Origin: Coraliomargarita sp.
GTDB taxonomy: Bacteria > Verrucomicrobiota > Verrucomicrobiia > Opitutales > Coraliomargaritaceae
Direction: 5' to 3'
DNA length: 64,000 nt
Assembly (NCBI GenBank): GCA_965216325.1
Contig: OZ244160.1
Location: forward strand, 2,720,001-2,784,000
A model generated the notes under the pieces. It was not told the DNA's origin. It worked only from the letters and a program-made list of their open reading frames with translations, and ran no database searches. Position 1 is the stretch's first letter, and each line of letters opens with the position of its first letter. Positions 47,438 to 64,000 of the stretch are shown here, piece after piece. The position numbers and the translations under genes are program-made.

Positions 47438-47745
47438 GTCGAGATTGAGCTGGTTTGGGTGCGAGGTTCTGTTCGTTAATTGGCTAATCTTGCTGGATTC
47501 TTGGTTTGAGTGGTAAGTTTTATGCATTGGCCGGGATGGCTCTTTTTGATCAGGGAGTCGGGCTTTGGTTTGGTGACGTCTCTGTTGCTCTAGTTTGAGT
47601 GATTATGCTGCTTTGTCGTTGGAGGCTATCTCGCTGATGCTGTGTGGCTTGTTGCCTGGTTTTAATGGATTGCTCTGCGTGTATGAATAAAATCGATTTC
47701 AGGCATTAAGAATCTGTTGGGGCGAAAACGGTTAGAGACTTGGAC

Positions 47746-47762
47746 TTGGCATGGCTGTGGCT
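47746..47762 (+). promoter_or_regulatory. Putative sigma54 promoter (-24/-12)
   Basis: TTGGCATGGCTGTGGCT, GG-N10-GC, 60 bp before the nitrate transporter. Confidence 0.6.
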
Positions 47763-47820
47763 AGAAGGGGATTGTTTTTTGCTAATCCCTCTTCGGAGGA
47801 ACCCAACCCAACCAACACAT

Positions 47821-49296
<1,476 letters not shown>

Positions 49297-49343
49297 GTTA
49301 AAATTTTTTATGCGAGTTATCTTCTTCGTGTAAAGTTGTTGGG

Positions 49344-49378
49344 ACCGCGCTCTGCGTTTACGTGGGGCGCGGTTTTTT
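49344..49378 (+). terminator. Terminator after the nitrate transporter
   Basis: ACCGCGC..GCGCGGT plus T-run. Confidence 0.6.
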
Positions 49379-49523
49379 GTGTGGAAATGAAAGTGGCTGG
49401 AGGCACCACCCCGTCTCGCATTGCGCCTTCGACGGGCTCAGGGCTGGCGAGCCACCCCTCCTCGTCAAGATGACATGGGAGGAGTTGCCAGCGGTGAGTA
49501 ATCACTAAGCTAGCACTCCAGCC

Positions 49524-50678
49524 ATGAAGAATACGAAATCACTCACTCCCACATCAGATAAACAGACTGAAGCGAAAGCGGATGTCCTCAAGCTTGGAAT
49601 CGACGTGCACAAGCGGCAATACGTTGTCGTGGCTCAGTTTGATAATCAGTCTCCGAAGACTCCACAGCGGTTTAGTCCTGAGGCATTTTTGGTTTGGATC
49701 AGCAAGCAGCGTGCCTACGCACAGCGTATTGTGACATGCTACGAAGCGGGCTGTTTCGGTTACGTGTTGCATCGGAGGTTGGAATCGATGGGCATCGAGA
49801 ACTTGGTCGTGCGTCCGCGTAACTGGGATGAGTATGGCTCGAAGGTGAAGACCGATGCCCGTGATGCGACCGAGCTTTGCAGCCATCTTGATCGTTATCT
49901 GGCGGGCAATGAGCGTGCTTTAAGTGTGGTTCGAGTTCCGAGCGAAGAACAGGAGCGTTCACGTAGTTTGAGCCGACAGCGCGACACCTTATCCAAAGAG
50001 CTCAAGCGCTTGCAGAACGTAGGAACCAGCAATGCCCGCTATTACGGTTATGAACTGAAAACAACTTGGTGGAAGCAGAACAACTTCAAGGAGTTGCTGC
50101 GTGAGTTGCCTGAGTATCTACTGGAGATCTTGCGCCCATTTCAGGCGATCTTAGCGAGCATCGATAAACAGTTCCGTGAAGTCACCGCACGCGAAGAGCG
50201 CAGAGCAAACCGCAAACTACCCGTTGGTCTGGGAGCACTCACAGCCTCGATTCTGGACAATGAGTTTCGTGACTACAGTCGCTTCAAAAACCGTGGCCAA
50301 GTCGCGAGCTATACGGGGCTGTGCCCGAGTGAATCTTCCAGTGGCGGCTCGCGCAAACAGGGTAGTATTAATAAACATGGCAATCCTCGTGTACGCCATA
50401 CTCTGATCGAGGCGATTTGGCGCTTTCTTCAGCACCAACCCGATTACGATCCGATCAAAGACTGGAGGAAGCGTATGTGCAATGAGCCCTTTAGTGCAGC
50501 TAAGAAAAAGAAAATGACTGTAGCTATCGCACGTCGATTTGCCGTGGACTGGTGGCGAATCAATACAGGGCAAATAGAGCCTGAAGCAGTCGGCTTGAAG
50601 GTGGACTATCCGAGCGCCTATGCAACGCGTGCTTTGCGTGAAGGCCGGATCGTCAAAATCCATGCGAAAGGAGCTTAA
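49524..50678 (+). CDS. IS110 family DEDD recombinase/transposase
   Basis: GIDVHK, YEAG, KTDARDA; C-terminal SYTGLCPSESSSGG..GN. Confidence 0.95.
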   Translation: MKNTKSLTPTSDKQTEAKADVLKLGIDVHKRQYVVVAQFDNQSPKTPQRFSPEAFLVWISKQRAYAQRIVTCYEAGCFGYVLHRRLESMGIENLVVRPRNWDEYGSKVKTDARDATELCSHLDRYLAGNERALSVVRVPSEEQERSRSLSRQRDTLSKELKRLQNVGTSNARYYGYELKTTWWKQNNFKELLRELPEYLLEILRPFQAILASIDKQFREVTAREERRANRKLPVGLGALTASILDNEFRDYSRFKNRGQVASYTGLCPSESSSGGSRKQGSINKHGNPRVRHTLIEAIWRFLQHQPDYDPIKDWRKRMCNEPFSAAKKKKMTVAIARRFAVDWWRINTGQIEPEAVGLKVDYPSAYATRALREGRIVKIHAKGA

Positions 50679-50700
50679 CAACTGATTTTTATGTAATTTG

Positions 50701-50860
50701 GAACGTTGGCTTGCGCGGCTCCCCTCCTGGTTCTTTGAAGAACCGATACCAAGATTGCGCGGCCTTTGTTCCTCTTGCCGATTGAATAGATCAACTTGCA
50801 CTGCTGAGAACAGGCACGTGCGGATAGCAGGTTATGCCCGGCAGTTTGCCGAATGCATCA
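50701..50860 (+). ncRNA. Putative bridge/seekRNA of IS copy 1
   Basis: Two internal-loop hairpins with target guides CTCCCCTCCT/ACCAAG and donor guides TCAACT/ATAGCAG; boundaries approximate. Confidence 0.8.
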
Positions 50861-51078
50861 ACAGAGGAAACGTTTCAAATGAATGATCTTAAAATGGGGG
50901 CTCATTGCCGCCCCCAAGCCCCCGCTAGGGGAACAGAATCGAAAGTAGATATATCCATGCATTAACAAAATTACGAAACCGCTTGACGATATCTCCCATA
51001 GCAGGAGGGGAGTTTTGGGCTCTGCGTTTACGTGGGGGTGTCCTTGCGCTGCATTGAGTTGTCTGGCTTTGCGGGCCT

Positions 51079-51155
51079 GTGCGGAGCCGGAGGCTCCTGC
51101 GCTACCTCTTGGTTGGGGGGGGGGGCGGGTGGCAATGGCGGAGCATTGCCCTCCA
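51079..51155. repeat. REP cluster (GTAG- and GGAG-type units)
   Basis: 51079-51107 identical to 46401-46429; 51131-51155 similar to 37110-37135. Confidence 0.75.
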
Positions 51156-51204
51156 TTTCTAATTTGAAGTTTTCCTCCTGTTGCATCGTTGGGATTTTTG
51201 GTTC

Positions 51205-52953
51205 ATGAGTTCGTCTATGCATATTCAAAATCGGTTTTCAGTGCGTTATGGCCAAGCCTCAGAGGCGGGTGTCAAAGAGCGTAATGAGGACTGTTTGGGA
51301 ATTACGATTCCGGAGGGTGATATGCTCGGCACGAAGGGCATCGTGGTGGTTTTGGCCGATGGGGTCTCGGCTGCGGAGGCTGGTGGCGAGGCTGCGGAGA
51401 TGTGCGTGCGCAGTTTTATTAATGACTACTATAGCACGCCAGAAACCTGGCAGGTGAAGACTGCCGGGCACCGTGTGTTGGTGGCGATTAATCGCTGGCT
51501 CTTCAGTAAGGGGCAGGCCTTTTCGGAGGCGCATAAGGGCTATGTCTGTGCGATGAGTGCGATGGTGCTCAAGTCGCGCTCGGCGCATATTTTTCACGTA
51601 GGTGATGCGCGGATTTATCGTTTGCGCGATGGGCAGTTGGAGCAGTTGACGGATGATCACCGCACCTGGGTGTCGGAAAAGACCAGCTATTTGGCGCGCG
51701 CGATGGGCTTGGGCACGAGTCTGGATGTGGACTATCGCAAGGTGCCGATTCAGCCGGGGGATCATTTGTTGCTCTGCACGGATGGGGTGCATGAGCATGT
51801 GCCGGAGAAGGAGCTGCGGCGCTTTGTGGATTTTGCCGCGGAGGATTTGGATGGCGCGTGTGCGAAGATTGTGGCGCAGGCTTTGGCTGAAGGCAGCACG
51901 GATAATGTGAGTTGTCAGCTCTTGGCGGTCGATTCGCTGGCGGACGTAAAGGCGAATCAGGTATATGAGGAGCTGGGGCGTTTGCCGTTTCCGCCGCCTT
52001 TGGAGGTCGGTATGGTCTTGGATGGCTATGCGGTGGAGCGTGTGCTGGATGAGAGTGCTCGTTCGCAGCTGTATCTGGTGAGGGACGTGGAGAGTGGTGA
52101 GCGCGCGGTGATGAAGACTCCGGCGGAGCGCTTCAGTGATGATGCGGCCTACATTGAGCGCTTTCTGATGGAGGAATGGGTCGGGCGGCGCATTTCAAAT
52201 TCACGCTTGGTGAAGGTGGTGGAGAAGCGCCGTGTGCCACAGTTTTTGTTCTATTTGATGGAGCATGTCGAGGGGCGCACCTTAGCGAAGTGGATCGAGG
52301 AGAATCCGCAGCCGGAGATGGGTGCGGTGATTCATTTGATCGAGCAGGTGATTGGTGGGGTGCGTGCTCTGCATCGCAAGGAGACGCTGCATCAGGATTT
52401 GAAGCCGGATAATATTATCCTCGATTGCAATGAGCAGGTGAAAATTATTGATTACGGTTCGGCTTATGTGGCGGGGATCAATGAGGCGGAGGTTCCCTTC
52501 GAGCGCCGGGTGGATTTGGGCACGCGTTGCTATTCGGCGCCCGAGTATGTGCTCAATCGCCGACCGACGACGCGCTCGGATTTGTTTTCGATTGGTGTGA
52601 TTGCCTATCAGTTGTTTACGGGCAGTAAGGGGCATCCCTATGGTGAGGCTTGGACGCGTGCGCAGACGGTGGGGGACTTTTCGAAGCTCAAGTATGTGTC
52701 GGCACTGCAGCACAACCCCATGGTGCCGGGCTGGATCGACGGGGCTTTGCGCAAGGCGGTCAGCGTGTCGCCTGAGGGGCGCTATCCGGTGCTGTCGGAG
52801 TTTTTGGCGGATCTGCAGGCGCCGAATCCGGAGTTTTTGAGTGTGGAAGATGGGCCGCTGATTCGTCGCAACCCGCTGCTGTTTTGGCGCGGGCTTGTGG
52901 TCGTACAGGCGGTCATCATTCTGATTTTAGCGATCCTGGTCGGCGCAGATTGA
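51205..52953 (+). CDS. Bifunctional PP2C phosphatase / Ser-Thr kinase
   Basis: NED, ADGVS, HVGDAR, TDGV, DN; kinase [18 protein letters not shown]-terminal TM. Confidence 0.92.
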
Positions 52954-53084
52954 GCTGAGGCAGTTGTGTAAGTGTTTTTGAATCAGGTGCCTTTGCGGAC
53001 TTTGTGGGACGCTGCTTGTCCATGAGCGAAATCGATGGATTCGATTAAAACACGGATTTGCATTAATTTGGACATCTGCGCGGA

Positions 53085-53101
53085 TTGGCATGACATGGGC
53101 T
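53085..53101 (+). promoter_or_regulatory. Putative sigma54 promoter (-24/-12)
   Basis: TTGGCATGACATGGGCT, GG-N10-GC, 30 bp before nirA; resembles 47746-47762. Confidence 0.6.
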
Positions 53102-53130
53102 GAAGTTATGGCCAATTGCAGGCAGATGTT

Positions 53131-54873
53131 ATGAGCACCGCTTTTTCTTCAGATCAAAAACAATACCTAGAGGGTTTCTTCGCCGGAGTGAACCAGCGCG
53201 GCGGCATGCCCTTTCTCGGGCAGAACGCGTCCGGGCAGTTTACCAATAGCCCCGCGGAAGCCGTCGAGGAGACGGTTTATGGCACGCCGATTGAGGACCT
53301 CTGCAAGGAGGAGCTGATCAAACACGAGCAGAACGGGCTGGATGTGTGGGACACGATGGTGGCCAATGCGGAGCAGGATGTATTTCCCGCCGCGGACGAT
53401 ATGTTCCGCTATAAGTTTCACGGCTTGTTTCATGTAAAGCCGGCACAGGATTCGTTTATGCTACGTTGCCGTATCGCCGGTGGTGCGTTGAAGTCGCATC
53501 AGCTCGTCGGTTTGGCTGAGATCGCAGACGATTGGGGGGGCGGCTACGCCGATCTGACCACTCGAAATAATTTTCAGGTCCGTGAGATTCTGCCGCGTAA
53601 CACCGTGAGTGTGTTGACGAAGTTGGTCGATCTTGGGCTGACTGCGCGTGGTTCGGGTGCCGACAATCTGCGCAATATTACCGCGAGCCCAACAAGTGGC
53701 TTCGACCCGCAGGAAGTTTTGGATGTGATGCCGTATGCCAAGGCGATGCACCACTACATCATGCACAATCGCGACCTCTACGGTCTGCCGCGTAAGTTTA
53801 ACATCGCCTTCGACAGCGGCGGTCGTGTCTCATCCTGTGCGGATACCAATGACATCGGTTTCTTTGCTGTGCGTGTGGGCGAAGGGCAGGGCGTTGAGCC
53901 GGGAATCTATTTCCGTGTGCAGCTCTGTGGGATTACCGGCCACAAGCAGTTTGCGTCGGATTGCGGTTTGTTGATCAAGCCGGATCAGGCGGTGGCTGTG
54001 GCTGCGGCAATGGTGCGTGTCTTTATCGAGAATGGTGACCGCACCAACCGCAAGAAGGCGCGTCTGAAGTATTTGGTCGATGACTGGGGCGTTGAAAAGT
54101 ATCTTGAAGAGACGCAGAAGAAGCTCGCGTTTGATCTGGGGCGTCTGCCGCTGGAGGCGTGCGAGCTGGCTACTGCGCCCGTGAAGCATGGCCACGTGGG
54201 GGTCTACAATGAGAAGACCGAAGGTTTGAATTACATTGGCGTGGTGATTCCGGTGGGGCGTATGCTGCCGGATCAAATGAAGGCGATCGCGAAGCTTGCG
54301 GATCGATACGGTCGCGGTGAAGTGCGCCTGACCGCTTGGCAGAATCTGTTGATCCCGGGGATCCAGGATGCCGACCTTGAGGCGGTGAAGGCGGCGATTC
54401 TCGAAATTGGGTTTAACTATAGCTCGACCACGATATCAGGTGGTTTGATTGCGTGCACGGGTAATGTTGGTTGCAAGTTCGCATCTGCCGATACCAAGGG
54501 ACATGCTCTGAAGCTTGCGAAGTATCTTGAGGAAGTCATCGAGTTGGATCAGCCGATCAACATTCACGTGACCGGATGCCATCACTCCTGTGCCCAGCAT
54601 TACATTGGTGATATTGGCCTGATCTCCTGCAAGGTGAAGATCGACGGTGAAAGCCACGAAGGCTACAGCGTGGTGCTCGGTGGCGGTTGTGATGATGCGC
54701 AGGCGATCGCCCACGAAGTCTTTCCCGGCACCGCCTTTGAGGATCTGAAGCCACTGATTCTGAATGTGCTCCGCACCTATCAGGAGAAGCGGGAAAATCA
54801 GGAAACCTTCTGGCAGTTTACCCGACGTCATACTGCGGACGAATTGAAAGCGCTCTTCGCGGTTGCTGCTTAA
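53131..54873 (+). CDS. nirA: Siroheme nitrite reductase, NirA family
   Basis: [30 protein letters not shown]. Confidence 0.92.
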
Positions 54874-54899
54874 CCAGAGACTTCAGTCGATGAACCGAT

Positions 54900-54988
54900 C
54901 TCTTAGTCATAATCCTAATCTTAATCGTAATCTCCTACGTATGCTTGGCACTGAGAGATTAAGACTAGGATAACGATTACGATTAAGA
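54900..54988. repeat. Hexamer tandem inverted repeat
   Basis: cataatcctaatcttaatcgtaatctc / gagattaagactaggataacgattacgattaag. Confidence 0.7.
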
Positions 54989-55000
54989 CTTTTTGGATAT

Positions 55001-56587
<1,587 letters not shown>

Positions 56588-56655
56588 CGATAACGAATCG
56601 TCAGTATGTGCTTATGAGAGATTTAAACTCAGACAATAGATTCACCATACACAAC

Positions 56656-56715
56656 GAAAGTGCCTTCGCACTTCCGCTACACGTAAAGGCTGTAGAGGAA
56701 CTGCGAAGCAGTTTC
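56656..56715. repeat. GTAG-type REP pair in divergent orientation
   Basis: GAAAGTGCCTTCGCACTTCCGCTACA / TGTAGAGGAACTGCGAAGCAGTTTC. Confidence 0.65.
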
Positions 56716-56760
56716 TTCTGCGGTGGGCAGAGCTAACAGTGCAATATTCAGTTTACGATC

Positions 56761-58968
56761 ATGTCTCCAATTGAATTCATCAAAGGCCAATTACGTTTAC
56801 GCGCCCGTGATGGTGTTTTGACCGAGCGTCTTGTTCAGGAACCTGCAGCCTATGGCTTAGGTCGCGTGCCTTCGTCAACCAAGCCGGATGCAACGGTGGA
56901 CAGTGTCTGCGGTTTTTGCGCGACCGGCTGCTCGTTGAAGGTGCACCTGAATGATGGGCAGGCGGTGAATCTCTCGGCCAATACCAAGTACCCGGTGAAT
57001 CTGGGCATGGCTTGCCCGAAGGGCTGGGAGGCTTTGACACCCTTGACTGCTTCGGATCGCGCGACCACGCCGATGCTCAAAGGTGCGGACGGTCAGTTAC
57101 ACCCAGTGAGCTGGGATGAAGCGATGGATGCCTTCGTTGGTAAGTTTAAGGACATCCAATCGCTGAATGGTCCCGAGTCGGTAGCGTTTATTAGCACTGG
57201 CCAGATTGTGGCTGAAGAGATGGCCTTCCTTGGTTCGCTGGCGAAATTCGGCATGGGTGTCGTGCATGGTGATGGCAATACCCGTCAATGCATGGCAACT
57301 GCGGTGGTTTCCTATAAGCAGTCCTTTGGCTACGATGCGCCACCGTATACCTATCAGGATTTTGAAGAGTCGGATGTGTTGTTCTTTGTCGGGGCTAACC
57401 CATGTATCGCACACCCGATTATGTGGCAGCGCGTGATGCGCAATCAGCGTAACCCGGAGATCATTGTGGTCGATCCGCGTAAGACGGAAACGGCGATGGC
57501 GGCGACGCGTCACTTGCCAATTAAGCCGAAATCCGACCTTGTTTTGTTCTATGGATTGGCCGCGCGCGTGGTGGAACTTGGTTTGATTGATCAGGCTTTC
57601 ATTGATGCCCACACCAACGAGTTTGAAGCCTTCAAGTTGTTTCTGCGTGACTACGATTTGGAGCGTGCTGCGGAAGAGAGCGGCATCGATCTGAAGGAGC
57701 TCGACGAGATCGCGCACCTGATCGGCTCGGGCAAGCGTGTGTCCTTCTGGTGGACGATGGGCGTCAACCAGAGTTACGAAGGCGTGCGTCTGGCGCAGTC
57801 GATGATCAACCTTGCCTTGATGACCGGTAATATCGGTAAGCCGGGCACGGGGGCGAATTCGATTACGGGGCAGTGCAATGCGATGGGCTCGCGCTTGTTT
57901 AGTAATACGACTGGTCTGCTAGGCGGACGTGATTTTACTTCGGCGGCCGATCGTCACGAAGTGGCCGAGTTGCTGGATATTCCGGTCGAGGTGATTCCAG
58001 ATCAGAACAGTCTTTCATACTATGAGATCATCGACGCGATTGATCGCGGCGAGATTAAGGGGCTCTGGATGATCGCGACCAACACCGCGCACTCCTGGAT
58101 CAATCAGAAGCGTTTCCGCAAGATTCGTGAGAAGTTGGATTTCCTCGTGGTGCAGGACATGTATCACACCACAGACTCCGCGCAAATCGCCGACCTTGTG
58201 CTACCAGCGGCAGGCTGGGGCGAGAAGGACGGTGTCTTCATTAATTCGGAGCGTCGTATTGGCCGCACGCGCAAGGTGCGCAAGGCACCGGGGGAAGCGC
58301 TTTCCGACTTCAATATCTTCCGCCTGATCGCGCACCATTGGGGCTGCGCCGATCTATTCAAGCAGTGGGATACTCCTGAGAATGTGTTCAAGTTGCTCAC
58401 TCGCGTGAGCAAGGGCATGCCATGCGATATCTCAGGTATTGAAGGCTATGACCACTTGGATCGTGAAGGAGGCATTCAATGGCCCTATCCGGATACGGTG
58501 AATGGACCTGTCGAGAAGCAGCGCCGCCTGTTTGAGGACGGTAAGTTCTTCCATGCCGATGGGCGTGCCAAGTTCCTCTTCGAAGCACCGCGCCCGATGC
58601 CGGAGCCGCCGAACGAGGACTATCCCTACATTCTTTTGACCGGCCGTGGCACTTCTTCGCAGTGGCACACACAGACCCGCACCGGCAAGTCTGATGTGTT
58701 GCGCAAACTGTATCCAGAAAACCCTTACGTAGAGATCAATCCGCAGGACGCCGAGCGCTTGGAAATTCGTCCGAACCACAAGGTGCGCGTGCGCTCCCGT
58801 CGTGGGGAAGTCGAAGTGACTGCCGTGCTACTCTCCAGTGTGCAACCGGGCCAACTGTTTATGTCGATGCACTACGATGTAACGAACCACTTAACTGCGG
58901 ACGCCTTTGATCCATATTCCAAGCAGCCTTCGTTCAAGGCCTGCGCAGTTACAATTGAGGCCGTCTAG
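56761..58968 (+). CDS. nasA: Assimilatory nitrate reductase catalytic subunit (NasA/NarB-like)
   Basis: [52 protein letters not shown]; no Tat signal. Confidence 0.9.
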
Positions 58969-59009
58969 GCCGCTGTTTTCGAACTCAACTTTTCAAAGAA
59001 AGGACTCAC

Positions 59010-60746
59010 ATGTCAGCACCATACATTCCAGATAACGCTCCGTTTTCGGAGGATCAACGTTCATGGCTCAATGGCTTTTTGGCCGGGCTCTATTCAAACG
59101 CACCGGGCGAGGGCGGCGCAGCTACTGCGGTCGCGGCCACTCCGGTAACTGTGTTGTTTGGCTCTCAAACCGGCACTTCCGAGGCCCTGGCGAAGAAGGC
59201 GGGCAAGCAATTGAAGGCGGCGAACTGTGATCCGAAGATCGTCGATATGGGAGACTTCTCTGTCGAGGATATGAGGGACTGTCAAAACGTGTTGATCGTC
59301 ACCAGCACCTACGGTGAGGGTGAGCCACCTGACAATGCCGCGAGCTTGCATGGTGCCTTGATGGCTGAAGGAGCGCCTAGCATGGCGGGTGTGAACTACT
59401 CTGTGCTTGGTCTGGGTGATTCGAACTATCCGGACTTCTGTCAGTGCAGTAAGGAATTTGATGCGCGCTTGGAAGCGCTTGGCGCAAGCCGTGTCGCACC
59501 GATGGTCGAGTGCGATGGTGATCCGGATGATTTGTTCCCTAGCTGGTTGGAGTCGGTTCAATCGGTTCTTGGTGAAGCTGGTGCGGCGCCTGCGGTCCTT
59601 GAAGACGATGCCGACGAAGAAGCAGGATCTGCTTTTGATAAGAAGAATCCATTTCCAGCAAAGCTGTTGAAGACTGAAAACCTCAATAAGGAGGGTTCTT
59701 CCAAGGCGACGCACCATGTGGAAATTTCGCTTGATGGCTCCGGCTTGGATTATGAGGTCGGTGATGCCCTGGGTGTGTATCCAGAAAACAAGGTTGCGTC
59801 GATTTTTGAAATCACCGGTGCGGCTGGGCTACTGCCGAGTGAAGAAGTGACCTTGCCCGATGGTAGCACGGTGAACCTGATGGAGGCGCTGCGTTTCCAC
59901 TATGACATTTGCGGTTTGCCAGAAGCATTCCTGAAGGCCTGCGCACGCCTGACCAAGAATGAAGAGTTGCAGGCAATCGTCGCGGATGAGACCCAGATCA
60001 AAGCATACAGCAATGGCCGCGGAGTTGTGGATCCGATTGTTGACTTTGAGGTGAAATTTCCGACTGCGGAGTATTTTGTCGCGAGCTTGAAGCCGCTGCA
60101 GCCACGACTTTACTCCATCTCATCCAGTCCGAAGGCACATCCGGGGGAGGTGCATTTGACGGTGGGGAAGGTGAGCTATGAGACGCATGGTCGCCAGCGT
60201 GGGGGTGTGTGCTCTACCTTCCTTGCTGAGCATACGACCGTGTCTCCGGTGAAGGTTTACTTGCACGCTAACAAGGCGTTCCGTTTGACCGAGAACAATG
60301 ATGCGCCGGCTATCATGATTGGTCCGGGCACGGGTATCGCGCCGTTCCGCGCCTTCCTCGAAGAGCGTGAAGCGCGTGGTGCGCAGGGCAAGAACTGGTT
60401 GCTGTTTGGTGACCAGCACATGGCGACGGATTTTCTTTACGAAGAACAGATCACTGCGTGGATGAAGAGCGGTTTGCTGACCCGCTTCGATACCGCGTTC
60501 TCGCGTGACCAGGCGGAGAAGATCTATGTGCAGGATCGTATTCGTGAGCATGCTGACGAGTTCTACGCATGGCTGGAAGAGGGGGGGCACATCTACATCT
60601 GTGGTGATGCCTCGCGCATGGCTAAGGATGTGGACAAGGCGATCCACAAGGCGGTCGAACTCGCCGGTGGAAAGTCCGAAGAGGATGCGAAGGCCTACGT
60701 GGAAGCGCTGAAGAAGGAAAAACGCTACCTGCGCGACGTCTACTAA
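59010..60746 (+). CDS. CysJ-like diflavin (FMN/FAD/NADPH) reductase
   Basis: GSQTGT, STYGEGEPP, RLYSISS, GPGTGIAPFR, YICGDA, RDVY. Confidence 0.92.
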   Translation: MSAPYIPDNAPFSEDQRSWLNGFLAGLYSNAPGEGGAATAVAATPVTVLFGSQTGTSEALAKKAGKQLKAANCDPKIVDMGDFSVEDMRDCQNVLIVTSTYGEGEPPDNAASLHGALMAEGAPSMAGVNYSVLGLGDSNYPDFCQCSKEFDARLEALGASRVAPMVECDGDPDDLFPSWLESVQSVLGEAGAAPAVLEDDADEEAGSAFDKKNPFPAKLLKTENLNKEGSSKATHHVEISLDGSGLDYEVGDALGVYPENKVASIFEITGAAGLLPSEEVTLPDGSTVNLMEALRFHYDICGLPEAFLKACARLTKNEELQAIVADETQIKAYSNGRGVVDPIVDFEVKFPTAEYFVASLKPLQPRLYSISSSPKAHPGEVHLTVGKVSYETHGRQRGGVCSTFLAEHTTVSPVKVYLHANKAFRLTENNDAPAIMIGPGTGIAPFRAFLEEREARGAQGKNWLLFGDQHMATDFLYEEQITAWMKSGLLTRFDTAFSRDQAEKIYVQDRIREHADEFYAWLEEGGHIYICGDASRMAKDVDKAIHKAVELAGGKSEEDAKAYVEALKKEKRYLRDVY

Positions 60747-60778
60747 GTGTAGCACAGCTGCATTTAGTGAATTGTTGT

Positions 60779-60844
60779 TGGAGAGACACCGTCCTCGGTG
60801 TCCAGTTAGGCTTAGTTCTGGACGACGGGGACGCCGTCCCTCCA
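60779..60844. repeat. GGAG-type REP doublet
   Basis: TGGAGAGACACCGTCCTCGGTGTCC / GGACGACGGGGACGCCGTCCCTCCA. Confidence 0.7.
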
Positions 60845-61017
60845 TTTTTCTGATATCGAATAACTAGAGCGAGTTGTCTCGACTGGATTCTGTGCGGACG
60901 GCTGTCTCGGCCCTTCGATAGACTTAGGGCGGCGAGCATGTCAAATGCGCGAGACAGCCCTACCTTTGACGAGAATCCTGCTTGCCTTTTGTTGCGTGGA
61001 CTGGACTGTGCGGCGCT

Positions 61018-61314
61018 ATGAAGAAAACATTTCAGTTCGCGCATCCGAAGATTAAGCCTGAGCGCATGGTGGAAGCCATCAAGGGTGAGGTGACCAAGTA
61101 TCTCAGACGGGAGCGGAAGAAGACTTTGCCGGATGGCATCGATTTCTGGGATTTTGACTGCAAGTTCGGTCCGGACGCTCAATCGGCGGTCGAGGTGCAT
61201 GTTGCCGAGTTGCCGAAGCGTATTGATGCGGCATCGGCGGAAGGCTTGGCTGAGTGCTACATCGAGATTTTGGCGAAGCCAGCCAAGCGCACAAAGAAGC
61301 CAGCGGAAGTGTAG
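61018..61314 (+). CDS. Conserved hypothetical protein (DUF6172-like)
   Basis: MKKTF..KY.RRERKK.LP.G.DFWDFDCKFG..YIEILAKP. Confidence 0.8.
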   Translation: MKKTFQFAHPKIKPERMVEAIKGEVTKYLRRERKKTLPDGIDFWDFDCKFGPDAQSAVEVHVAELPKRIDAASAEGLAECYIEILAKPAKRTKKPAEV

Positions 61315-61430
61315 AAGTGGCCTTGTCCACAGGGGCGATGCGTCGCGAGTCGAGCGAGCATTGTCAGGCGATTATTTGTAGATGACATGGGCGTTTATCA
61401 GGAGCACGGAAGTGCTATGATGATAAACTT

Positions 61431-62519
61431 ATGCAAAACCCCACATCATCTACACGGACAACTAAGAACGCACTGGGCACAGTAATCAAGCTTGGCATTG
61501 ACGTGCATGCGAGCACCTACGTGGTGGTCATGAAGATCGATAGCAGCGCCCCTTCACGCGCGAAGCGCATGAAGCCTGATATCTTCCTTCGATGGATTAA
61601 GCAGCTGAGCACTCAGTGCGAGCAGTTGCAAAGTTGCTACGAGGCCGGTCCTTTTGGTTACAGCCTGCACCGCAAGCTCAAGGCGATGGGCGTGAACAAC
61701 CACGTAATCCGCCCGATCAACTGGGACACTCATGGTAAGAAGGTAAAGACCGACGCGCGTGATGCGTTGCAAATGGTCTTGAGTCTGGACGGCTATCTGC
61801 GGGGCAATGACCGCAGCTTCAGTGTCGTGCGTGTGCCCAGCGAGCAAGAAGAGCGTCACCGCAGCCTAACCCGGCAGCGTGAAAGCTTCGTCAAAGAACG
61901 TGGCCGTGCGGCCAAGCGTGGTAAGAGTCTGGGACTGTATTACGATCAACCCTTACCCAGCGGCTGGTGGAAGCCGCGCAAATGGATGCAGCTACTCGAA
62001 CAGCTCGACGATTTTTTGATCAGCCTGCTGGAGCCACTGCGGTTAAACTGCCTGCACTTTAGCGAGCTAATCAGCAACATCGAAGAACGTATCGAAGCGC
62101 TCGAGCCGGAACGGGTGCTGCCTAAAGGCATGGGGGTGGTCCTCTATGAACAGATCGAACGTGAGGTCTGCAACTGGAAGCGATTCAACAACCGCAAGGC
62201 GGTCAGTTCCTTTACCGGACTGTGCCCAAGCGAAGACACTAGTGCAAATCGGCGTTTCCAGGGCTCGATCAACAAACACGGCAGTCCCCGCCTGCGGCAT
62301 ATGCTACAAGAGTGCGCCTGGTTATTGATCCGGTGGAATCCCGGCTACAGTGGGGTGCGTAAATGGCAGGCCAAGCTCAGCGACGAGACCACCAGTAAGG
62401 CGACCCGCAAGAAAATTGCCGTGGCCATCGCCCGGCAGTTCGCCGTGGACTGGTGGCGCATACGCACTGGCCAATGCAGTCTCGAAGACTTCGGACTGAT
62501 AAGCAGACAAAACCCATAA
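61431..62519 (+). CDS. IS110 family DEDD recombinase/transposase
   Basis: GIDVHA, YEAG, KTDARDA, FTGLCPSE; divergent paralogue of 49524-50678. Confidence 0.95.
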   Translation: MQNPTSSTRTTKNALGTVIKLGIDVHASTYVVVMKIDSSAPSRAKRMKPDIFLRWIKQLSTQCEQLQSCYEAGPFGYSLHRKLKAMGVNNHVIRPINWDTHGKKVKTDARDALQMVLSLDGYLRGNDRSFSVVRVPSEQEERHRSLTRQRESFVKERGRAAKRGKSLGLYYDQPLPSGWWKPRKWMQLLEQLDDFLISLLEPLRLNCLHFSELISNIEERIEALEPERVLPKGMGVVLYEQIEREVCNWKRFNNRKAVSSFTGLCPSEDTSANRRFQGSINKHGSPRLRHMLQECAWLLIRWNPGYSGVRKWQAKLSDETTSKATRKKIAVAIARQFAVDWWRIRTGQCSLEDFGLISRQNP

Positions 62520-62583
62520 GTCCGAACCAACGCTAAAGGCCTTCACCCTCTGATTTTAACGTTCTTTTGCAGTTTTCCTTTGT

Positions 62584-62760
62584 GCGGAGTGAGTCTGACC
62601 AAGCCCCTGTTGCCAACACAACGATTTTGTAGAATAGGCCACTTCGCCACCAAGCTTTTGAATGACCCAATGGATAGGTCATAGTGTGCTCTTCTGAGAA
62701 ACACTCAGAAACACGGATAGCAGGTTATCCCGGATCATCGAAACTCCGAGGCCATGCGCG
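62584..62760 (+). ncRNA. Putative bridge/seekRNA of IS copy 2
   Basis: Target guides AAGCCCCT/TTTGTAG, donor guides GTCAT/ATAGCAG, same layout as copy 1; boundaries approximate. Confidence 0.8.
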
Positions 62761-62857
62761 GTGGACGCTCAAAGACGATTGCAATCAAAACAAACCACTT
62801 ATCTTATGTAAAAACACTCACACGCTTCTACACTCTTGACAGAAACGAACATAGCAG

Positions 62858-62930
62858 GGGCTTCGCTTGCGGAGCCCGCTTCTGGAAGGAGGATTCTCTG
62901 TGTGACGGGCTTCGCAAGCAAAGCTCCTGC
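62858..62930. repeat. Family A REP doublet interrupted by IS copy 2
   Basis: GGGCTTCGCTTGCGGAGCCCG / CGGGCTTCGCAAGCAAAGCTCCTGC. Confidence 0.75.
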
Positions 62931-62990
62931 GTTTTCTAGTCAAATTAGGGCTCGTATCCCGTGTCCTGATTGGCGTATCCCATTGGGCAC

Positions 62991-64000
62991 ATGAAATTTT
63001 CCCAAGTCGCAATTGAATCCATCGCTTATGCGTTGCCGGACGAGGTGTGGACCTCGGCGGACGTGGAGGCGAAATTGGCGTCTGTTTACGAGCGTCTTCG
63101 TTTGCCCGAAGGTCGTCTGGAGTTGATGACCGGCATCAAGGAACGTCGCTTCTGGCCTGCGGGCACCCCAGCGTCGGTGGCATCGGCTAAGGCAGGCGAG
63201 GCAGTGCTGGCGAAATCGTCCTTCAAGCGCGAGCAGATGGACTTGTTGATTCATTCTGCGGTCTGCCGTGACCGCTTAGAGCCGGCGACGGCTTCATATG
63301 TGCACGGCTTGCTTGGCCTTTCGGGAGGCACGCAGATCTTTGATGTGTCGAATGCCTGCCTTGGTTTTTTGAATGCGATGGTGATTGCGGCGAGCATGAT
63401 CGAGAGCGGTCAAATCGAGCGCGCGCTGATTTGCTCAGGCGAGAATGGTCGTCCATTAGTGGAGAATACGCTGCAGCAATTGCAGAATCCGGAGCTGACC
63501 CGTAAGACGATCAAGCCGTATTTCGCCAATCTGACCATTGGTGGTGGTGCCGTTGCGGCGGTCTTGTGTCGCAAGGACTTGGCTCCTGTATCCAGCCCGC
63601 AACTACATGCGGCAGTGGTGGAGACGGATACCTCGCACAATGAGTTGTGCCAAGGGGACTCCGCTGGGGATGCCTTGGAGATGTTGACCGACTCGGAAGA
63701 ATTGCTGGTCGCGGGTATTGGTGTGGCCACCCGCGCATGGGCCCGCTTCACCGAAGCGACTGGTTGGACCGCTGAAACGCCGGACCGTGTGATTACACAT
63801 CAGGTTGGTAAGGCGCACACGCGTGAGTTGTTCAATGCATTGAATTTAGATCTGGAAAAAGACTACGCGACTTTCGAGACGCTGGGGAATGTGGGCTCGG
63901 TTTCCTGCCCGATTACCTTGGCACGTGCGATCGAAGATGGTGCCTATGGGCCAGGACAGAAGGCTGCCTTGCTGGGCATCGGCAGTGGTTTGAGTAGTTT
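62991..64000 (+). CDS. oleA: 3-oxoacyl-ACP synthase III, OleA-like (3'-truncated by window edge)
   Basis: Not in ORF track; reads MKFSQVAIESI..RLELMTGIKERRFW..LEPATA..FDVSNACLGF..THQVG..GNVGS..LLGIGSG. Confidence 0.8.
   Translation, partial: MKFSQVAIESIAYALPDEVWTSADVEAKLASVYERLRLPEGRLELMTGIKERRFWPAGTPASVASAKAGEAVLAKSSFKREQMDLLIHSAVCRDRLEPATASYVHGLLGLSGGTQIFDVSNACLGFLNAMVIAASMIESGQIERALICSGENGRPLVENTLQQLQNPELTRKTIKPYFANLTIGGGAVAAVLCRKDLAPVSSPQLHAAVVETDTSHNELCQGDSAGDALEMLTDSEELLVAGIGVATRAWARFTEATGWTAETPDRVITHQVGKAHTRELFNALNLDLEKDYATFETLGNVGSVSCPITLARAIEDGAYGPGQKAALLGIGSGLSS

What the first reader, a model, noticed from the sequence alone, without database searches (positions are those of the whole stretch)
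49470..62857. Two IS110/IS1111-type elements with a shared RNA scaffold but different target guides: a naturally reprogrammed pair of RNA-guided recombinases
Seen: both elements start AG|ATGACATGGG and end CATAGCAG|, have divergent DEDD recombinases, sit in unrelated REP families, and carry about 320-340 bp of 3' non-coding DNA. That DNA holds two successive loops of one layout: guide A - hairpin - GAT - guide B ending in AG. Loop 1 differs between elements and matches each one's own flanks; loop 2 is shared and matches the element's own ends. Known: IS110/IS1111 recombinases use a non-coding bridge/seekRNA that pairs with target and donor DNA. Inference: this is such a system with an AG core, and its programming rule can be read from the two copies. 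The mechanism class is described; whether this subfamily is new cannot be judged here.
Basis: partly seen in the sequence, partly recalled or inferred. Interest (0 to 1): 0.92.

Follow-up and report, generated by a model that had tools for sequence, protein, structure and literature searches.

The report
Two RNA-guided IS1111-type insertion sequences
These are two related jumping genes whose own small RNA very likely tells the recombinase where to insert; the mechanism was described in 2024, so they are clean new examples, not a new kind of system.

Summary
Element A (window 49470-51004, one copy) and element B (61382-62857, nine identical copies in the genome) are IS110-family DEDD recombinase elements. 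Each has a short left end and a 326/338-nt non-coding stretch after the gene. Each stretch folds into a ~190-200-nt RNA with two arms. The first arm is a target loop that spells both strands of the element's own insertion site, overlapping at an AG core. The second arm is a donor loop that matches the element's ends.

Across relatives from other genomes the fold is supported by compensatory changes. Guides match their own flanks better than any of 5000 shuffles. Guides of held-out relatives predicted their right ends and flanks. On a quick recombinase tree, close relatives carry different guides and sit in different sites, so natural retargeting is real.

All of this matches the published seekRNA / bridge RNA mechanism of IS1111-group elements (Siddiquee 2024; Durrant 2024). 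NCBI already names homologues "IS110 family RNA-guided transposase".

No RNA-seq data were found, so expression is inferred. The verdict is new members of a known kind: a divergent clade found mostly in Verrucomicrobiota. Interest is moderate to low.

The parts
49468..49469 (+). AG core copy on the left of element A (host side)
   Evidence: The empty sites read ...CGTCAAG|GAGGGGAG with a single AG.
49470..51004 (+). Element A, 1535 bp, single copy in the genome
49470..49523 (+). Left end of A (54 nt) with a subterminal inverted repeat (CATGGGAG paired with CTCCCATAG at the right end)
49524..50678 (+). Recombinase gene of A, 384 aa, DEDD/RuvC-like N-terminal domain plus PF02371 C-terminal domain
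   Evidence: NF033542: 168.6 bits against a cut-off of 140
50695..50881 (+). Predicted bridge/seek RNA of A (187 nt): closing stem P1, a target arm and a donor arm
   Evidence: model hit of 164 bits
50719..50728 (+). [quoted passage not shown]
50748..50753 (+). Target loop of A, 3' guide ACCAAG. CAAG equals the left flank plus core (pairs with the bottom strand).
50790..50796 (+). Donor loop of A, 5' guide ATCAACT (against the expected GTCATCT: 3 of 5 bases plus 2 of 2 core bases)
50822..50830 (+). Donor loop of A, 3' guide GGATAGCAG, equal to the right end CATAGCAG over 7 nt
50983..50988 (+). TTGACG box 16 nt from the right end. It may be the -35 half of a circle-junction promoter, part of the extended inverted repeat, or both.
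   Evidence: the function is inferred
61380..61381 (+). AG core copy on the left of element B
61382..62857 (+). Element B, 1476 bp, one of 9 copies in the genome (100% identity by the search table)
   Evidence: Contig depth is about 9 times that of the flanks.
61431..62519 (+). Recombinase gene of B, 362 aa
   Evidence: NF033542: 137.8 bits, just under the cut-off of 140
62576..62776 (+). Predicted bridge/seek RNA of B (201 nt), same architecture as A
   Evidence: 97.5 bits
62601..62608 (+). Target loop of B, 5' guide AAGCCCCT, the reverse complement of AG+GGGCTT
62626..62632 (+). Target loop of B, 3' guide TTTGTAG, equal to the left flank plus AG. GTAG is found at 8 of the 9 copies.
62678..62684 (+). 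Donor loop of B, 5' guide GTCATAG. GTCAT is the reverse complement of the left end ATGAC; the two core positions are not complementary.
62715..62723 (+). Donor loop of B, 3' guide GGATAGCAG, equal to the right end
62836..62841 (+). TTGACA box 16 nt from the right end

Best explanation
A and B are two autonomous insertion sequences of the IS110 family with the IS1111-type layout: a short left end, the recombinase gene, and a long right end.

Each right end encodes a ~190-200-nt RNA closed by a terminal stem, with two arms.

Arm 1 is an internal loop around a small hairpin.
[quoted passage not shown] Arm 2 is a three-way junction built the same way.
- Its 3' strand (GGAUAGCAG) matches the right end.
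- Its 5' strand partly matches the left end.
- Together they should hold the RE-AG-LE junction of the excised circle.

The DEDD/serine recombinase, bound to this RNA, then exchanges strands at the AG core. This places the element into REP-like palindromes: A into CAAG|GAGGGGAG, B into GTAG|GGGCTT.

Shown here: the anatomy, the fold's covariation, guide-flank and guide-end covariation, the existence of empty target sites, and multiple identical copies of B. Inferred from the published systems: that the RNA is made and bound, that a circle forms, and that strand exchange works this way.
For: Protein:
- Both proteins carry PF01548 and PF02371 and hit NF033542 'IS110 family RNA-guided transposase'.
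- D27, E74, D111, D114 and S273 are invariant in 12 sequences.
- A profile's best hits in the PDB are the ISCro4 (E 3.4e-6) and IS621 (E 9.7e-4) transposases.

RNA fold:
- The same architecture appears for A and B when the guides are kept unpaired.
- On 39 sequences, 76.1% of cells pair, against 33-44% when partners are slid.
- The covariation score is 0.39 against 0.09-0.14 for slid partners.
- 41 of 50 pairs change on both sides, and 0 of 500 shuffles reach the score.
- A covariance model finds exactly the 10 expected copies in the genome.
- The model gives 70 hits in 69 of the 80 related loci. The hits lie just 3' of the gene on the gene's strand, except a second, opposite-strand copy in L076.

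Target guides, on 42 elements with at least 10 nt of flank on both sides:
- The mean longest match of the 5' guide to rc(AG + right flank) is 7.5, against 5.67 when shuffled (0 of 5000 shuffles reach it).
- The 3' guide match is 4.33 against 3.0 (0 of 5000).
- The same holds for 16 representatives with distinct guides.

Held-out loci:
- In the nine with a variant donor guide, guides predicted the right flank with 7/7, 5/6, 6/6, 3/6, 7/7, 7/7, 6/7, 7/7 and 7/7 matches.
- In L063 the prediction matched 5 of 6 and in L062 5 of 5 readable bases.

Donor guide:
- Three variants (GGATAGCAG, GGATAGGAG, GGATATTAG) go with right ends CATAGCAG, CATAGGAG/CATAGGGG and CATATTAG.
- Left-end classes ATGAC and ATACC pair with TCA and GTA at the three central guide positions.

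Activity and context:
- B has 9 copies (100% identity by the search table), all in one site type.
- The genome holds 34 and 18 empty sites.
- Sister elements on a quick recombinase tree have different guides and targets, for example A against L021, L046 against L057, and L034/L037/L040.

The published mechanism fits:
- In IS1111-type elements the non-coding region lies downstream of the gene, and the top-strand match lies 5' of the bottom-strand match (PMC11187229, sections 6 and 9).
- The bridge RNA lies in the right end, with donor nucleotides in a multi-loop (PMC11208160 passages).
Against: - The RNA has not been observed.
- No sigma-70-like promoter or intrinsic terminator was found in either non-coding region, so how the RNA is made is open.
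- The left-end side of the donor loop is imperfect. In A it matches 3 of 5 bases. In B and several clades the two core positions are non-complementary. The ATAAC class pairs at only 2 of its 3 central positions.
- Some flanks fit poorly: L078 3 of 6, L069, L054, and L026. Some right flanks lack one G relative to the guide.
- In five held-out loci the right-end core reads GG although the guide reads AG.
- B scores 137.8 bits against the NF033542 cut-off of 140.
- The shuffle tests do not remove relatedness among elements.
Confidence: 0.9

Rival explanations
1. The mechanism is the same, but the classification differs. This clade, found mostly in Verrucomicrobiota, is not IS1111 in the strict sense. 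It is instead a separate deep branch, or one of the IS110-type branches that carry the non-coding region downstream of the gene.
For: - The recombinases are 362-385 aa. Siddiquee et al. give 330-350 aa for IS1111-family transposases and 345-385 aa for the ISEc21 cluster, and note IS110-type groups with a downstream non-coding region (PMC11187229, section 6).
- The best plasmid-borne relatives are only 30-34% identical.
- B falls just under the NCBIfam cut-off.
Against: - Subterminal inverted repeats are present.
- The GL-P----S(G/A) motif is present.
- The left end is short and the right end long.
- The guide order is the IS1111 order.
- The donor loop is a multi-loop, as reported for many IS1111 members.
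Confidence: 0.25
2. The recombinase alone recognises the REP hairpins. The non-coding region is a 3' untranslated or regulatory structure, and its matches to the flanks are chance or captured REP fragments.
For: - Both targets are palindromes that a protein could read.
- There is no direct evidence of the RNA.
- The left-side guide match is short (4 nt in A).
Against: - Guides covary with flanks across 16 distinct guide types (0 of 5000 shuffles).
- Guides predicted the flanks of held-out elements.
- The matches lie about 250-285 nt inside the element, in the single-stranded parts of a fold supported by covariation.
- Sister recombinases have different targets.
Confidence: 0.04
3. The elements are relics. 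The sequence features are real, but the copies no longer move.
For: - A is single-copy although 18 empty sites exist.
- No circle junction or empty allele was seen in the four DNA runs laid on the region. These were contigs only, which drop rare forms.
Against: - B has nine copies (100% identity by the search table) with intact ORFs, which indicates recent movement.
- A has an intact ORF, intact ends and an intact RNA.
Confidence: 0.1

Closest known systems
seekRNA-guided IS1111-family elements ISEc11, ISPa11, ISKpn4, ISPst6 (Siddiquee et al. 2024, PMC11187229; abstract and sections 6, 9, 13 read)
   Same: - DEDD recombinase with a PF02371 C-terminal domain and the GL-P----S(G) motif.
- Subterminal inverted repeats.
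- Long non-coding region downstream of the gene.
[quoted passage not shown]
- Different members select different sites, often REP-like.
   Different: - The proteins are longer (362-385 aa against 330-350 aa).
- At most 34% identity to any plasmid-borne IS110-family protein found.
- The hosts are mostly Verrucomicrobiota.
- The core is AG and the ends are nearly invariant (ATGACATG...CATAGCAG).
- I did not compare sequences with the named elements. No reference sequences were at hand, and the paper's supplements were not read.
IS621 and its bridge RNA (Durrant et al. 2024, PMC11208160, passages read; structures 8wt6-8wt9) and ISCro4 (9t56)
   Same: - Two-loop RNA with target and donor guides.
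- Each guide includes the 2-nt core, so the pairings overlap.
- A promoter -35 box lies in the right end of the donor.
- Distant protein homology.
   Different: - The RNA lies in the right end, not the left end.
- The guide order is reversed.
- The donor loop is a three-way junction, not a simple internal loop.
- The core is AG, not CT.
- Homology is detectable only with a profile, and mainly in the C-terminal domain.
ISPpu9 of Pseudomonas putida KT2440 (PMC12288879; only the start of the abstract in a search listing was seen)
   Same: An IS110-family element inserted into REP sequences, with a small-RNA gene downstream of the transposase gene.
   Different: ISPpu9 has orphan copies of its RNA gene elsewhere in the genome. 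Here the model finds no orphan copy.

Membership tests
IS110 family (DEDD recombinase elements) | N-terminal DEDD/RuvC-like domain (PF01548) plus C-terminal PF02371 domain | tested here: met
   both domains lie over Pfam's cut-off in both proteins. For PF01548, B scores 29.2 against a cut-off of 29.
IS110 family (DEDD recombinase elements) | Conserved acidic tetrad and the serine of the G--P----SG motif | tested here: met
   D27, E74, D111, D114, G265, L266, P268 and S273 are invariant in 12 sequences. The motif wording comes from PMC11187229, section 6. Assigning these four acidic residues to the tetrad is my reading. B has SA instead of SG.
IS110 family (DEDD recombinase elements) | NCBIfam NF033542 equivalog score at or above 140 bits | tested here: inconclusive
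   A scores 168.6 (met); B scores 137.8 (just under).
IS1111 group | Long non-coding region downstream of the gene and a short left end | tested here: met
   326 and 338 nt downstream; 54 and 49 nt upstream.
IS1111 group | Subterminal inverted repeats of 7-17 bp | tested here: met
   A positions 6-12 (ATGGGAG); B positions 6-8 and 11-15; longer in relatives (up to 11 consecutive bases).
IS1111 group | Transposase related over its full length to that of IS1111; length 330-350 aa | tested here: inconclusive
   The lengths of 384 and 362 aa fall outside the range quoted in PMC11187229, section 6. No reference IS1111 sequence was available for a tree.
seekRNA / bridge RNA systems | Structured RNA conserved with the recombinase gene | tested here: met
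seekRNA / bridge RNA systems | Loop strands complementary to both strands of the target, overlapping at the core and covarying with it | tested here: met
seekRNA / bridge RNA systems | Second loop complementary to the element's ends (donor) | tested here: met
   On the right-end side, three guide variants match three right-end variants. The left-end side is only partly complementary.
seekRNA / bridge RNA systems | The RNA is expressed, binds the recombinase and is required for transposition | not testable with these tools
   No RNA run was listed for this organism.
Rfam RNA families | Match to a curated covariance model | tested here: not met
   no match at E up to 1 in window 49000-64000.

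The most novel reading that the evidence does not exclude
This clade, found mostly in Verrucomicrobiota, is a distinct, highly regular IS1111-like subfamily.
- It has an invariant AG core and almost invariant donor ends.
- Its bridge RNA is a closed two-arm structure whose programming rule can be read off directly: an 8-10-nt right-half guide and a 4-7-nt left-half guide.
- The left-end strand of the donor loop is systematically non-complementary at or next to the core (AG, AA or GA where CU is expected). One subgroup carries a GG right-end core against an AG guide.

These mismatches could mark built-in positions that pair only after strand exchange, or that bias insertion against excision. 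That feature has been studied so far only in IS621.
Probability: 0.3. Interest if true: 0.5.

Novelty: new member of a known kind. Interest (0 to 1): 0.33.

Why it matters
The pair, together with about 70 relatives, is a clean natural data set for how IS1111-type guide RNAs are reprogrammed. Close relatives differ mainly in their guides and land in different sites.

B looks recently active, and its host genome holds dozens of empty target sites. That makes it a convenient candidate for a further programmable recombinase distinct from those already in use. It does not change what is known about the mechanism.

Tried and rejected
- Rfam scan of 49000-64000 at E up to 1: no match.
- Single-sequence PDB search: no hit at E up to 0.01. 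Only the profile search reached ISCro4 and IS621.
- Search for RNA-seq runs: no RNA holder listed.
- Laying four DNA runs (contigs, one study) on 49000-63300. B has about 9 times the depth of its flanks. There was no empty allele and no circle junction. Two 24-letter 'joints' from 51155/51156 to 62856 come from very short pieces, and I did not interpret them.
- Sigma-70 promoter and terminator scans of both non-coding regions: 0 sites.
- RNAalifold alone recovered only the inner stems (17 pairs). The full architecture came from folds with the guides held unpaired and was then tested.
- The unconstrained fold of B's whole non-coding region is no more stable than shuffles (z = +0.86). A's gives z = -2.08.
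- The careful tree did not finish in the time allowed, so the tree used is the quick one with SH-aLRT support only. L082 sits on a very long branch and should be ignored. Five elements with ORFs under 300 aa were dropped (L061, L065, L086, L087, L093).
- Of the 80 related loci, 50 passed my first motif-based end finder. The left end assigned to L042 was wrong and that of L041 is doubtful.
- Composite transposon idea: rejected. A and B are different elements, and the 10 kb between them holds ordinary host genes.
- Earlier notes of this scan: none for this genome or sequence.
Full report
**What is there**

- Element A is window 49470-51004 (1535 bp).
- Element B is window 61382-62857 (1476 bp).
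- Each is preceded by AG and ends in CATAGCAG.
- Each holds one long ORF (384 and 362 aa) with the two Pfam domains of IS110-family recombinases.
- The proteins are 46% identical.
- NCBIfam's model 'IS110 family RNA-guided transposase' scores 168.6 bits for A and 137.8 for B, against a cut-off of 140.
- The left ends are 54 and 49 nt. The non-coding stretches after the genes are 326 and 338 nt.
- The 10 kb between the elements holds ordinary host genes: a PP2C-kinase fusion, a nitrite/sulfite reductase, iron-sulfur and molybdopterin oxidoreductases, a flavodoxin reductase and a DUF6172 protein. The two elements therefore do not form one unit.

**Copies and targets in the host genome**

The genome is one 3.06-Mb contig with 52.9% G+C.

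- A occurs once.
- B occurs nine times (100% identity by the search table).
- These ten are the only PF02371 genes in the genome.
- All nine B copies sit at ...AG|GGGCTTyGC.... The left side reads GTAG at 8 of 9 and GAAG at one. Most sites lie at the foot of a GGGCTTTGCTTGCGAAGCCC palindrome.
- The genome has 34 unoccupied GTAGGGGCTT sites.
- It has 18 unoccupied CAAGGAGGGGAG sites inside CACCCCTCCTCGTCAAGGAGGGGAG palindromes. These show that A's boundaries are right and that one AG belongs to the target.

**The RNA**

Read by eye and then verified letter by letter, each non-coding stretch has two successive units of the same layout.

Unit 1:
- A: CTCCCCTCCT, hairpin, GAT, ACCAAG.
- B: AAGCCCCT, hairpin, GAT, TTTGTAG.
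- The first strand is the reverse complement of AG plus the right flank.
- The second strand repeats the left flank plus AG.

Unit 2 ends in GGATAGCAG in both elements, which equals the right end.

When these strands are held unpaired, A and B fold into the same architecture:
- a closing stem;
- an arm whose internal loop carries the target guides around a small hairpin;
- an arm in which the donor guides lie in a three-way junction, with one hairpin between the guides and one after the 3' guide.

The predicted RNAs span 50695-50881 and 62576-62776. Their sequences are only 78 of 181 aligned positions identical. What they share is the architecture plus the donor 3' strand.

**Relatives**

Protein searches found more than a thousand homologues for each protein. 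The few that carry names come from Puniceicoccus, Coraliomargarita and Opitutia genomes and are called IS110 family (RNA-guided) transposase. The host is therefore likely an Opitutales-type member of the Verrucomicrobiota. The closest plasmid-borne proteins are only 30-34% identical.

A scan of one genome per species returned 80 loci.
- 50 of the 80 showed the left-end motif, the internal GGATAGCAGG motif and the right end.
- Together with A and B they gave 45 distinct RNA regions.
- 42 of 43 distinct end pairs are preceded by AG. The exception, L042, had a wrongly assigned left end.

**Fold support**

On 39 of the 45 sequences I tested the architecture projected from A (near-duplicates were left out). 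The results:
- 76.1% of cells pair, against 33-44% when partners are slid by 1-3 columns.
- The covariation score is 0.39, against 0.09-0.14.
- 41 of 50 pairs change on both sides.
- 0 of 500 shuffles reach the observed score.
- The weakest helices are the short junction stem (43.5% paired) and the tip of the last hairpin (50%).

A covariance model built from this alignment finds exactly the ten expected copies in the host genome and no orphan. In the related loci it gives 70 hits in 69 of 80. The hits lie just 3' of the gene on its strand, apart from a second, inverted copy in L076.

**Guide-flank covariation**

42 elements had at least 10 nt of flank on both sides. Two measures were compared with 5000 shuffles of the flank assignments.

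| Set | Measure | Observed | Shuffled mean | Shuffles reaching observed |
|---|---|---|---|---|
| 42 elements | Longest match, 5' guide vs rc(AG + right flank) | 7.5 nt | 5.67 (sd 0.2) | 0 of 5000 |
| 42 elements | Match, 3' guide vs left flank | 4.33 nt | 3.0 | 0 of 5000 |
| 16 distinct-guide representatives | 5' guide | 7.5 | 4.84 | 0 of 5000 |
| 16 distinct-guide representatives | 3' guide | 4.38 | 2.9 | 0 of 5000 |

These shuffles do not remove relatedness, so I also made out-of-sample predictions. I took guides from the model alignment of loci that were not used to build it.
- For the nine loci with a variant donor guide, the predicted right flank matched 7/7, 5/6, 6/6, 3/6, 7/7, 7/7, 6/7, 7/7 and 7/7.
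- L063 matched 5 of 6, and L062 matched 5 of 5 readable bases.
- Poor fits do exist: L078, and within the first set L069, L054 and L026.

**Donor loop**

In the first set the right end and its guide never vary, so they say nothing about covariation. The held-out loci do vary:
- guide GGATAGGAG goes with right end CATAGGAG (L058) or CATAGGGG (L090, L092, L096, L097, L100);
- guide GGATATTAG goes with CCATATTAG (L071, L072, L078).

So the right-end strand covaries with the right end.

The left-end strand is weaker. Across the clades, its three central positions pair in every ATGAC class (TCA) and in the ATACC class (GTA), but at only 2 of 3 in the ATAAC class. The outer positions and the two core positions are often non-complementary: A has ATCAACT, B has GTCATAG, and the fully complementary GTCATCT occurs in only 8 rows. 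I leave these mismatches unexplained. In IS621, special positions next to the core pair only after strand exchange (passages of PMC13626964), which is a lead, not a finding.

**Natural retargeting**

On a quick recombinase tree (SH-aLRT support only; five elements with short ORFs were dropped and L082 is unreliable), the commonest target is AAAG|GGGTCA. Different guides appear in sister or near-sister elements:
- A (CCCCTCCT) is sister to L021 (TGACCCCT), with support 96.
- B and L047 (AAGCCCCT) are sister to L043 (TGACCCCT).
- L041 (CGCGGCCT) lies inside a TGACCCCT clade.
- L046 and L057 differ from each other.
- L034, L037 and L040 differ from one another.

That makes at least six changes of guide. 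In each case where flanks are available, the flanks agree with the guide. L029 shares A's target type with a compensating change: flank GAGGAGGAG with guide CTCCTCCT.

**Other conserved features**

A TTGAC box lies 16-18 nt from the right end in 35 of 41 distinct right ends, and exactly at -22 to -18 in 27. After circle formation it would stand 17 nt before TGACAT or TAACAT of the left end, as in the junction promoters reported for IS621. A junction promoter of ISEc11 is known to me only from a title in a reference list. The box also has an inverted partner in the left end. It may therefore be a recombinase-binding repeat, a promoter half, or both. No sigma-70-like promoter or terminator lies within the non-coding regions themselves. 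The RNA may be cut from the recombinase transcript, but this is inference.

**Comparison with what is known**

- Siddiquee et al. (PMC11187229; abstract and sections 6, 9 and 13 read) showed for four IS1111-family elements that the downstream non-coding region yields a seekRNA. It co-purifies with the transposase, is essential and is reprogrammable. Its top-strand match lies 5' of its bottom-strand match, which is the order seen here.
- Durrant et al. (PMC11208160; passages read) predicted bridge RNAs in the right end of 93% of IS1111 elements. They noted that the donor nucleotides often lie in a multi-loop, as here.
- A profile of this clade hits the solved ISCro4 and IS621 transposases as its two best PDB matches.
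- Earlier notes of this scan describe several analogous IS1111-type guide RNAs in other genomes, judged ordinary new members.

Differences from the studied elements:
- longer proteins;
- low identity to any plasmid-borne relative;
- the AG core;
- hosts that are mostly Verrucomicrobiota.

Whether the clade lies inside IS1111 proper or beside it needs a tree with reference sequences, which I did not have.

**Verdict**

These are new, divergent and probably active members of a known kind of RNA-guided insertion sequence. What remains unshown is the RNA itself and its function. No RNA data were available.

Noticed in passing
window 51115-51125: A run of 11 G sits between element A and the next gene (the PP2C-kinase fusion starting at 51181). 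Such homopolymers can vary in length. In the DNA runs, contigs break or carry loose ends near 51128-51158.
   Followed up: no
window 50893-50935: A G/C-rich hairpin module (GGGGGC..GCCCCC, then CCCC..GGGG) lies in A's right end after the RNA. It is shared with L023, L026 and L030, with a similar module in L049, but is absent from close relatives L021, L022 and L029. It may be a terminator-like insert or a small mobile module.
   Followed up: no
G000:C1:1554230-1555393 (outside the window): Five copies of B's target motif lie about 290 bp apart, next to a B copy (1552474-1553949). They sit within a longer repeat ending ...GCTTGCCTTCGATCCTGAGCTTAGGCCGAAT. B copies at 1109331 and 2070236 also sit in this second variant of the repeat.
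   Followed up: no
L090, L092, L096, L097, L100 (right ends near 2562-2583): In this subgroup the right end reads CATAGGGG before the flank, while the donor guide reads GGATAGGAG and the left flank ends in AG. The core copy at the right end therefore appears to be GG, not AG.
   Followed up: partly
L052 and L056, right flank: An extra CAG stands between the right end (CATAGCAG) and the expected target GGCGGGG. It is absent at sister copies L050 and L055.
   Followed up: no
L076:3060-3244 (- strand): A second, inverted copy of the RNA lies about 240 nt beyond the first element's RNA, so two elements sit tail to tail in that MAG.
   Followed up: no
window 47740-49296 and 51181-61314: The neighbouring genes look like a nitrate/nitrite or sulfite assimilation cluster: an MFS transporter, a NIR_SIR reductase, a 4Fe-4S/DmsC-like fusion, a molybdopterin oxidoreductase and a flavodoxin-FAD reductase. 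A PP2C-protein kinase fusion and a DUF6172 protein lie among them.
   Followed up: partly
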